DNA of 47,599 nucleotides, from NCBI GenBank assembly GCA_032718475.1, contig JAUCBJ010001587.1, positions 1 to 47,599 on the forward strand, given 5' to 3'. The position numbers and the translations under genes were made by a program. Below are positions 42,221 through 43,013 of the stretch, piece by piece. Origin of the DNA: Nemertoderma westbladi (Eukaryota > Animalia > Xenacoelomorpha). Every line of letters starts with the position of its first letter. The stretch's first letter is position 1. The notes below the pieces were generated by a model. The model saw only the letters and a program-made list of their open reading frames with translations, was not told the DNA's origin and searched no databases.

Positions 42221-43013
42221 TCATCGGTTGCTATGGATACACCAACTAACCTAATGTCTCGGTCGACCCACAATGGACGGGAACACGGCTCTGGGAGCGT
42301 CATCGGTTGCTATGGATACACCAACTAACCTGATGTCTCGGTCGACCCACGATGGACGGGAACACGGCTCTGGGAGCGTCATCGGTTGCTATGGATACAC
42401 CTACTAACCTAATGTCTCGGTCGACCCACGATGGACGGGAACACGGCTCTGGGAGCGTCATCGGTTGCTATGGATACACCAACTAACCTGATGTCTCGGT
42501 CGACCCACGATGGACCGGAACACGGCCCTGGGAGCGTCATCGGTTGCTATGGATACACAAATTAACCTGATGTCGCGGTCGACCCACGATGGACGGGAAC
42601 ACGGCCCTGGGAGCACCAACGGTTGCTATGGATACACAAACTAACCTAATGTCTCGGTCGACCCACGATGGACGGGAACACGGCCCTGGGAGCGCCAACG
42701 GTTGCTATGGATACACAAACTAACCTGATGTCTCGGTCGACCCATGATGGATGGGAACACGGCTCTGGGAACGCCAACGGTTGCTATGGATACACAAACT
42801 AACCTGATGTCGCGGTCGACCCACGATGGACGGGAACACGGCCCTGGGAGCACCAACGGTTGCTATGGATACACAAACTAACCTGATGTCTCGGTCGACC
42901 CATGATGGATGGGAACACGGCTCTGGGAGCGCCAACGGTTGCTATGGATACACAAACTAACCTGATGTCGTGGTCGACCCACGATGGACGGGAACACGGC
43001 TCTGGGAGCGTCA
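42221..43013 (-). repeat. 79-bp minisatellite made of the actin exon-1 3' end plus its 5' splice donor (10 copies including the native junction)
   Basis: Unit (minus strand) GATGACGCTCCCAGAGCCGTGTTCCCGTCCATCGTGGGTCGACCGAGACATCAG|GTTAGTTTGTGTATCCATAGCAACC. GT donors lie at 42961, 42882, 42803, 42724, 42645, 42566, 42487, 42408, 42329 and 42250. Confidence 0.97.

What the first reader, a model, noticed from the sequence alone, without database searches (positions are those of the whole stretch)
42221..43013. Actin exon-1/intron-1 junction amplified into an array of nine decoy 5' splice donors
Seen: the last ~54 nt of coding exon 1 plus the first ~25 nt of intron 1 are repeated ten times at exact 79-bp spacing. 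Nine extra (C/T)AG|GTTA(G/A)T donors, each in native exonic context, therefore lie between the true donor (42961) and the acceptor (41388). Only the most distal donor gives actin. The second donor (+79 nt) shifts the frame, and any further donor includes the in-frame TAG at 42878-42880. Established: duplicated equal-strength donors compete, often favouring the intron-proximal one, and premature stops can trigger NMD. Inference: the array could act as a copy-number-tunable splice sink or rheostat on actin output, or it shows how the spliceosome ignores perfect decoys. Three copies, including the most acceptor-proximal (42250, 42408, 42645), carry TAG|GT instead of CAG|GT, and 42566 carries GTTAAT, possibly weakening them.
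Basis: partly seen in the sequence, partly recalled or inferred. Interest (0 to 1): 0.8.

Follow-up and report, generated by a model that had tools for sequence, protein, structure and literature searches.

The report
Actin splice-donor "mirage" minisatellite
The end of the first coding exon of an intact animal actin gene, with its splice signal, stands in ten head-to-tail copies, a repeat type already known from lancelet and human genes and likely harmless because splicing would use the first signal.

Summary
A 79-bp unit (53 nt exon end + 26 nt intron start) stands ten times with no indels at 42221-43015 (minus strand). Only the first donor (42961) gives actin; six of the nine extras pair with U1 as well as it does. 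A 5-nt microhomology at both ends points to a slippage-type duplication. The gene looks alive: two CArG boxes, a TATA box, a 376-aa frame, and 0 exon-2 residues unseen in 57 other actin loci, against 18 in a truncated neighbour copy. This is a known kind of repeat: lancelet "mirages" and human F7, LMNB2, PDGF, CBS and IFI6 minisatellites, where the most upstream donor is used wholly or mainly. At least two other organisms carry independent duplications of the same actin junction (L002, L069; L068 is the same gene as L069 without it). Nothing supports a rheostat: donor positions vary no differently from the rest of the unit. No RNA could be examined, so donor use here is inferred, and reporter work showing an intron-proximal preference argues the other way. 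New member of a known kind; low interest.

The parts
43312..43321 (-). CArG box 1 (CC[A/T]6GG); role as an SRF site of actin promoters is recalled
   Evidence: 4 such boxes in the window, 2 of them within 100 bp upstream of the TATA box
43283..43292 (-). CArG box 2
43222..43228 (-). TATA box, 141 nt upstream of the ATG
42962..43087 (-). Actin coding exon 1, codons 1-42
42221..43015 (-). Minisatellite: 10 x 79 bp (53 nt exon end + 26 nt intron start); unit 1 holds the real exon end; units 2-6 and 7-10 form two sub-blocks
42956..42964 (-). First donor (GT at 42961), the only one that gives actin; phase 0, the widespread animal actin intron after codon 41/42
42245..42885 (-). Nine extra donors (42882, 42803, 42724, 42645, 42566, 42487, 42408, 42329, 42250); all frame-shifting or stop-containing
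42878..42880 (-). In-frame TAG met by read-through or by any donor beyond the second
43011..43015 (-). 5-nt microhomology at the exonic end of the array
42221..42225 (-). The same 5 nt at the intronic end of the array
41388..42220 (-). Unique remainder of the intron, ending in a U-rich acceptor (AG at 41389-41388)
40383..41387 (-). Actin exon 2, codons 43-376 plus stop; 323 of 334 residues identical to the best PDB cytoplasmic actin hit
   Evidence: (differences counted by eye on the printed alignment)
40370..40375 (-). AATAAA just past the stop (a second one at 40095-40100); candidate poly(A) signals
34684..35637 (-). Neighbouring 5'-truncated actin copy (from codon 60/61), used here as an internal control for a decaying actin

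Best explanation
This is a junction-spanning minisatellite in a conserved actin gene: 79 bp across the first donor are repeated ten times, likely after a slippage-type duplication at a 5-nt microhomology, and it is likely tolerated because splicing would take the most upstream donor and discard the other nine with the intron. Shown: the anatomy, the microhomology, two sub-blocks of related units, an intact promoter signature and reading frame, no unusual amino-acid changes, and independent duplications of the same junction in other organisms. Inferred: birth by slippage or microhomology-mediated repair; growth and block-wise homogenisation by unequal exchange; survival because a duplication that starts in an exon and ends in the intron leaves the first exon end intact; choice of the first donor by position (5'-to-3' scanning as in F7, helped by cap-dependent U1 loading or exon definition) and not by strength or structure; any leak to later donors giving premature stops that would be degraded, with no selected role.
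For: (1) Microhomology of 5 nt at both array ends; 0% indels. (2) Block structure: mean differences 4.2 within units 2-6, 2.7 within 7-10, 6.8 between, like the concerted evolution described for lancelet mirages. (3) Gene under purifying selection: 0 exon-2 residues unseen among 57 other actin loci (median depth 47) against 18 in the neighbour copy. Unit 1 has none of the 6 amino-acid-changing or stop variants, and 8 of the 9 extra units have at least one. If the gene had died when the array arose (about 3% divergence per lineage, 738 replacement sites) some 25 replacements would be expected (my arithmetic). Only donor 1 makes actin, so donor 1 must be used if this gene is the one selected. 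(4) Two CArG boxes, TATA and AATAAA in place. (5) No sign of tuning of the extra donors (p=0.68). Donors 2-4 are identical to donor 1 from -8 to +26 and donor 1 is not the most accessible (P unpaired 0.02 vs 0.004-0.057), which leaves position as the cue. (6) Precedent: F7 (37 bp, 5-9 copies), LMNB2 (100 bp, 10-15) and PDGF (81 bp, 16-18) use only the authentic donor; F7 pseudo-sites are functional but used only when upstream ones are destroyed; lancelet mirages do not disturb splicing. (7) Recurrence: 2 of 29 metagenome actin loci with this intron carry a second exon end plus GT, with other breakpoints (L002, 58 nt; L069, 59 nt), and L068, 98.8% identical to L069, lacks it. (8) 62% of the window is tandem repeat.
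Against: Donor use was not observed in this gene. Reporter work finds nearly 100% intron-proximal use for two strong donors 45 nt or more apart (PMC3413131), which at 79-nt spacing predicts the opposite. In CBS and IFI6 the next two pseudo-sites are used as well. Exon 2 could be kept clean by gene conversion from other actin paralogues, and repeat units may diverge faster than single-copy DNA; both would weaken argument (3). Synonymous variants among the exon copies are slightly above expectation (6 of 12, p 0.08-0.13), not significant. L002's presence among the 80 loci is biased, because its second copy is in the same shifted frame as my query, so the unbiased rate may be nearer 1 in 29. All mechanistic precedent is from mammals and lancelets.
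Confidence: 0.8

Rival explanations
1. Rheostat or splice sink: a regulated share of transcripts uses donor 2 or later, is destroyed by nonsense-mediated decay, and copy number sets actin output.
For: 6 of 9 extras match the true donor in predicted U1 pairing; every alternative gives a premature stop; CBS and IFI6 leak to the next two sites; tandem repeats associated with splicing variation exist in humans (PMC10078293, passages); an unchecked note reports use of a downstream copy in another gene of this genome.
Against: No enrichment or depletion of change at donor positions; F7, LMNB2 and PDGF use only the first site; the same duplication arises sporadically and is present or absent in near-identical copies elsewhere (L068 vs L069); unchecked notes describe many such arrays in unrelated genes of this genome, which suggests a mutational habit and not a device for actin.
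Confidence: 0.08
2. The array has crippled this actin: the intron-proximal rule sends splicing to a late donor, the product is non-functional, and other actin paralogues compensate.
For: Proximal preference at 45 nt or more in reporters; a decaying actin copy lies 4.7 kb away, so the family turns over.
Against: 0 private replacements in exon 2 against 18 in the neighbour; promoter boxes intact; the units have diverged by about 7%, so the array is not brand new.
Confidence: 0.06
3. The AG|GT of each unit, or the AG 20 nt into each intron part, serves as an acceptor: the array is removed stepwise (zero-length exons that regenerate the donor) or yields pseudo-exons.
For: Nine YAG|GT points would regenerate the donor exactly; the AG at unit offset 73 has a T content (0.43) like the true acceptor (0.38); 6 of 205 single-pseudo-exon combinations keep the frame (117 or 138 nt inserts after codon 42).
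Against: The AG|GT points have G/C-rich upstream sequence (T 0.19); 190 of 205 combinations give premature stops; a 1.6-kb intron needs no ratchet, and a 39-46-residue insert at this loop would likely spoil polymerisation (both from general knowledge).
Confidence: 0.03
4. Assembly artefact: the array or its copy number is not real DNA.
For: No reads or second assembly could be laid on it.
Against: Units differ at 15 columns in an ordered block pattern with no indels; comparable duplications stand in unrelated assemblies.
Confidence: 0.03

Closest known systems
Human junction-spanning minisatellites: F7 intron 7 (37 bp x 5-9), PDGF intron 4 (81 bp x 16-18), LMNB2 (100 bp x 10-15), CBS intron 13, IFI6/6-16 (PMC1557585; abstract, Introduction, first Results subsection and Discussion read; the other genes only as that paper cites them)
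   Same: First monomer spans the exon-intron boundary, so the donor is repeated identically into the intron; similar unit size and copy number; extra donors look functional.
   Different: Here the exonic share is large (53 of 79 nt against 4 of 37 in F7), the gene is an invertebrate actin, the intron is probably the first one, and donor use and length polymorphism were not measured.
Lancelet 'mirage' minisatellites: Adh3, globins BflGb6/BflGb9, troponin C, PGBD5 (PMC3087553 abstract and section 16; PMC3902484 one passage; the original Adh3 paper not seen)
   Same: Tandem copies of an exon-intron boundary with AG/GT signals; 81-100% unit identity and concerted evolution in blocks in BflGb6; 3-6 copies; splicing reported normal.
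   Different: Not shown to be a lancelet; donor-side array of 10; allelic and somatic length instability not testable here.
Intron gain by tandem duplication of AGGT-containing segments (Rogers model, as summarised in PMC3087553 section 16; PMC4974935 seen as a search listing only)
   Same: Each unit carries AG|GT, usable in principle as donor and acceptor.
   Different: The duplication straddles an existing, ancient intron boundary; no new intron or exon is formed in the frame that makes actin.

Membership tests
Junction-spanning minisatellite ('mirage' / F7-type VNTR) | Head-to-tail repeat with minisatellite-size unit | tested here: met
   79 bp x 10.1, 0% indels
Junction-spanning minisatellite ('mirage' / F7-type VNTR) | Terminal monomer spans a real exon-intron boundary of the host gene | tested here: met
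   Unit 1 holds codons 25-42 and the GT; same intron position in 29 of 80 actin loci and a V after RHQ in 111 of 120 read-through proteins
Junction-spanning minisatellite ('mirage' / F7-type VNTR) | Copies keep splice signals | tested here: met
   10 of 10 keep GT; 6 of 9 extras equal donor 1 in predicted U1 duplex energy
Junction-spanning minisatellite ('mirage' / F7-type VNTR) | Repeat turnover with block-wise homogenisation | tested here: met
   Distances 4.2 and 2.7 within blocks, 6.8 between
Junction-spanning minisatellite ('mirage' / F7-type VNTR) | mRNA spliced at the authentic site | not testable with these tools
   No run listed; indirect support only from protein conservation
Junction-spanning minisatellite ('mirage' / F7-type VNTR) | Copy number varies between alleles | not testable with these tools
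   No genome or runs for this organism; presence/absence seen only in another organism's actin (L068 vs L069)
Regulatory unproductive splicing (AS-NMD rheostat) | Alternative sites create premature stops | tested here: met
Regulatory unproductive splicing (AS-NMD rheostat) | Alternative sites preserved by selection | tested here: inconclusive
   Donor columns vary like the rest (2 of 9 vs 13 of 70, p=0.68); low power
Regulatory unproductive splicing (AS-NMD rheostat) | Measurable, regulated use of the unproductive site | not testable with these tools
   No RNA
Recursive splicing (ratchet points) | AG|GT preceded by a pyrimidine/U-rich acceptor tract | tested here: not met
   Upstream T fraction 0.19 against 0.38 at the true acceptor; one unit per offset scored
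Conventional actin | Full-length, highly conserved actin frame | tested here: met
   376 aa; PF00022 1.5e-131; PDB cytoplasmic actins E about 1e-221

The most novel reading that the evidence does not exclude
The spare donors are not silent: a copy-number-dependent share of actin transcripts is cut at donor 2 or later and destroyed, so a fast-mutating minisatellite acts as a heritable dial on actin dose, and the recurrent duplication of this same junction in unrelated animals reflects repeated use of that dial.
Probability: 0.07. Interest if true: 0.7.

Novelty: new member of a known kind. Interest (0 to 1): 0.25.

Why it matters
As it most likely stands it is a tolerated by-product. It has modest value as a compact natural test of how 5' splice sites are chosen: four donors identical from -8 to +26, 79 nt apart, each traceable by unit variants, in what is likely a highly expressed gene. 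The upstream-scanning result (F7) and the intron-proximal result (globin reporters) predict opposite outcomes here. I found no report of such an array in an actin gene (one search: 1 paper held all four terms, on an abalone kinase gene, not read), and the same junction has duplicated independently in at least two other organisms. If leak to later donors scaled with copy number, it would be a VNTR controlling actin dose, which would be a real surprise.

Tried and rejected
No whole genome is held, so actin family size and the genome-wide rate of such arrays were not measured by me. The one sequencing-run search (3101 bases, kind rna) listed no RNA holder; this says nothing about expression, and no reads could be laid. 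Exact look-up of five window-derived proteins: 0 of 5 in the collection. No metagenome locus came from this organism: best DNA identity 85.7% among 80 loci. RNA structure as the cue: donor 1 is not more open than the extras at either window size, rejected. Donor strength as the cue: donors 2-4 are identical, rejected. Selection for weaker decoys: not detected. Exon 1 splicing to the neighbour copy as an alternative last exon: an in-frame stop three codons upstream and no phase-0 AG in between, rejected; no second copy of residues 1-60 outside the gene and array. TRF missed the L002 duplication; it was found by direct comparison, and only 3 intronic bases match in its second copy, so it is an exon-end copy plus GT, not a clean tandem unit. 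My two junction scans each called 29 of 80 loci intron-bearing but differed by two loci each way; the 29 of the second scan fall into 27 distinct clusters. The organism was not determined; an earlier unchecked note says 'likely acoel', which I did not test. Literature searches; none returned a paper on this array. No supplements were read; those of PMC3087553 hold the mirage alignments and could refine the comparison. No fold or complex prediction was needed.

Full report
Observation. Tandem Repeats Finder gives 42221-43015, period 79, 10.1 copies, 94% matches, no indels, score 1338. On the minus strand an actin starts at 43087; exon 1 ends after codon 42 at a CAG|GTTAGT donor (G at 42961); the acceptor ends at 41388 and exon 2 runs 41387-40383. 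Nine more donors follow at 79-nt steps. Donor 1 gives 376 residues; donor 2 shifts the frame and stops at codon 83; donors 3-10 include the TAG at 42880-42878.

Anatomy and origin. The unit is 53 exonic plus 26 intronic bases. The same five bases stand at the exonic start (43015-43011) and the intronic end (42225-42221) of the array, the usual mark of a slippage or microhomology-mediated duplication (established knowledge; the event is inferred). Fifteen of 79 columns vary; mean identity is 93.2%. Units 2-6 and 7-10 form two blocks (mean differences 4.2 and 2.7 within, 6.8 between), as expected from growth by unequal exchange. The setting is repeat-prone: four arrays fill 62% of the window.

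Is the gene alive? Two perfect CArG boxes (43321, 43292; 2 of the 4 in the window) and a TATA box (43228) lie upstream, AATAAA downstream (the CArG-actin link is recalled). Exon 2 matches Pfam actin and PDB cytoplasmic actins, with 11 differences in 334 residues from the best hit. Against 57 other actin loci, none of its residues is private, whereas a 5'-truncated copy 4.7 kb downstream has 18 private residues among 27 differences. Unit 1 carries none of the six amino-acid-changing or stop variants seen in the array; 8 of the 9 extra units carry at least one. Had the gene been dead since the array arose, about 25 replacements would be expected (my arithmetic). Since only donor 1 makes actin, conservation implies that donor 1 is used. 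The caveats are gene conversion from unseen paralogues and faster change in repeats.

What picks donor 1? Not strength: donors 2-4 are identical to it from -8 to +26, and 6 of 9 extras have the same predicted U1 duplex energy (-8.2 kcal/mol; copies 5 and 10 -6.6, copy 6 -5.6, using a recalled consensus). Not local structure: its predicted accessibility lies within the range of the others. Donor columns vary no differently from the rest (2 of 9 vs 13 of 70, p=0.68), so there is no sign that decoys were weakened or kept by selection, though power is low. Position remains. In human F7 identical downstream donors are functional yet unused until the upstream ones are destroyed, which the authors explain by 5'-to-3' scanning (PMC1557585: abstract, Introduction, first Results subsection, Discussion). 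The cap-binding complex promotes U1 recognition at first introns (PMC7462061, 12 of 19 passages), which would point the same way if this is the first exon; a pyrimidine-rich AG near 43180 could instead make it an internal exon, where exon definition would also favour donor 1 (inference). Against this: two strong donors 45 nt or more apart are spliced almost wholly at the intron-proximal one in globin reporters (PMC3413131, 9 of 9 passages), and CBS and IFI6 also use the next two sites. Direct evidence is missing: no RNA run was listed and no genome is held.

How common is it? The intron position is widespread: 111 of the 120 best read-through proteins have V after RHQ, and 29 of 80 metagenome actin loci have GT there (a looser scan also gave 29, differing by two loci each way). 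Two of them repeat the exon end and a GT just downstream with other breakpoints: L002 (58 nt on, two exon ends, second donor different) and L069 (59-nt unit, at least two copies, contig ends in it). L068 is 98.8% identical to L069 over 2.1 kb and has a single copy, so the duplication is present or absent in near-identical copies of one gene. Their exon 1 is 81% identical to the window's and 78% to each other, so these are independent events. L002's rank was helped by my query, which held a frame-shifted copy, so the rate is rough. Protein P0002 shows a degenerate second exon end too. Earlier AI notes describe many donor arrays, some of over 1,000 copies, in unrelated genes of this same genome, mostly with the first donor used and in one case a variant copy also used; these are unchecked leads, and they pointed me to the papers I then read.

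Comparison. The design is that of lancelet 'mirages' (PMC3087553: abstract and section 16; PMC3902484: one passage), reported not to disturb splicing, to vary in length and to evolve in blocks, and of the human F7, PDGF (81 bp x 16-18), LMNB2 (100 bp x 10-15), CBS and IFI6 minisatellites. Four structural features of that class are met here; normal splicing and allelic length variation could not be tested. As a regulatory AS-NMD switch it meets only the trivial feature (premature stops); repeats linked to splicing variation do exist in humans (PMC10078293, 12 of 22 passages). As a recursive-splicing ladder it fails on acceptor quality (T fraction 0.19 vs 0.38); 190 of 205 single-pseudo-exon combinations give premature stops, 9 are zero-length and 6 keep the frame.

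Verdict. A real, ordinary-sized member of a described class, likely born by slippage and tolerated because the first donor wins (0.8). The rheostat is not excluded (0.07-0.08) but has no positive evidence. One search for such an array in an actin gene found none; that, and the recurrence at the same junction in other organisms, is the small novelty. Interest 0.25.

Noticed in passing
window 34684-35637 (-): Second actin copy lacking residues 1-59, with an ATG at codon 60 and an open frame of 317 aa; 27 amino-acid differences from the main gene, 18 not seen in 57 other loci, pairwise dN/dS 0.17, dS 0.27. Likely a decaying truncated duplicate, but it has no stop or frameshift.
   Followed up: partly
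L069 2841-2954 and L068 2080-2189: Another organism's actin gene with (L069, 59-nt unit, at least 2 copies) and without (L068) a duplication of the same exon-1 end and donor; 98.8% identical otherwise.
   Followed up: yes
L002 708-820: A third organism's actin with a second copy of the last 47 exon bases and a different GT donor 58 nt downstream.
   Followed up: yes
P0002, P0001, P0107: Short database proteins with an in-frame second copy of part of actin exon 1; P0002 reads as exon end, intron, degenerate exon end. DNA not seen.
   Followed up: partly
window 8242-30758: 22.5-kb satellite, 66-bp unit, about 342 copies, with a stop-free stretch of 1317 codons on the plus strand; only sub-threshold or repeat-driven Pfam hits; no host exon recognised at either end.
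   Followed up: partly
window 3169-6717: Mixed 40/49/89-bp array whose minus strand carries several splice-like words (CAG|GT, ATG|GTAAG, TAG|GT); no host exon recognised by eye.
   Followed up: partly
window 44773-47599: 24-bp-based degenerate array with long open frames reading as Pro/Thr-rich (PTHQPTDP-like) repeats, running off the window end.
   Followed up: no
window 1363-3022 (+): Broken Mutator-like transposase relic (PF20700, 7.8e-27 at 1743-2084) with an inverted duplication near 2181-2306.
   Followed up: partly
window 43180-43195 (-): Pyrimidine-rich tract ending in AG about 35-49 nt past the TATA box; could be the transcription start region or an acceptor for an upstream or trans-spliced leader. 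L068/L069 show a similar TATA, TATCCACA, pyrimidine-AG order.
   Followed up: no
window 8-90 and 41505-41593: A short dispersed repeat shared by the window start and the actin intron (81% over 89 bp).
   Followed up: no
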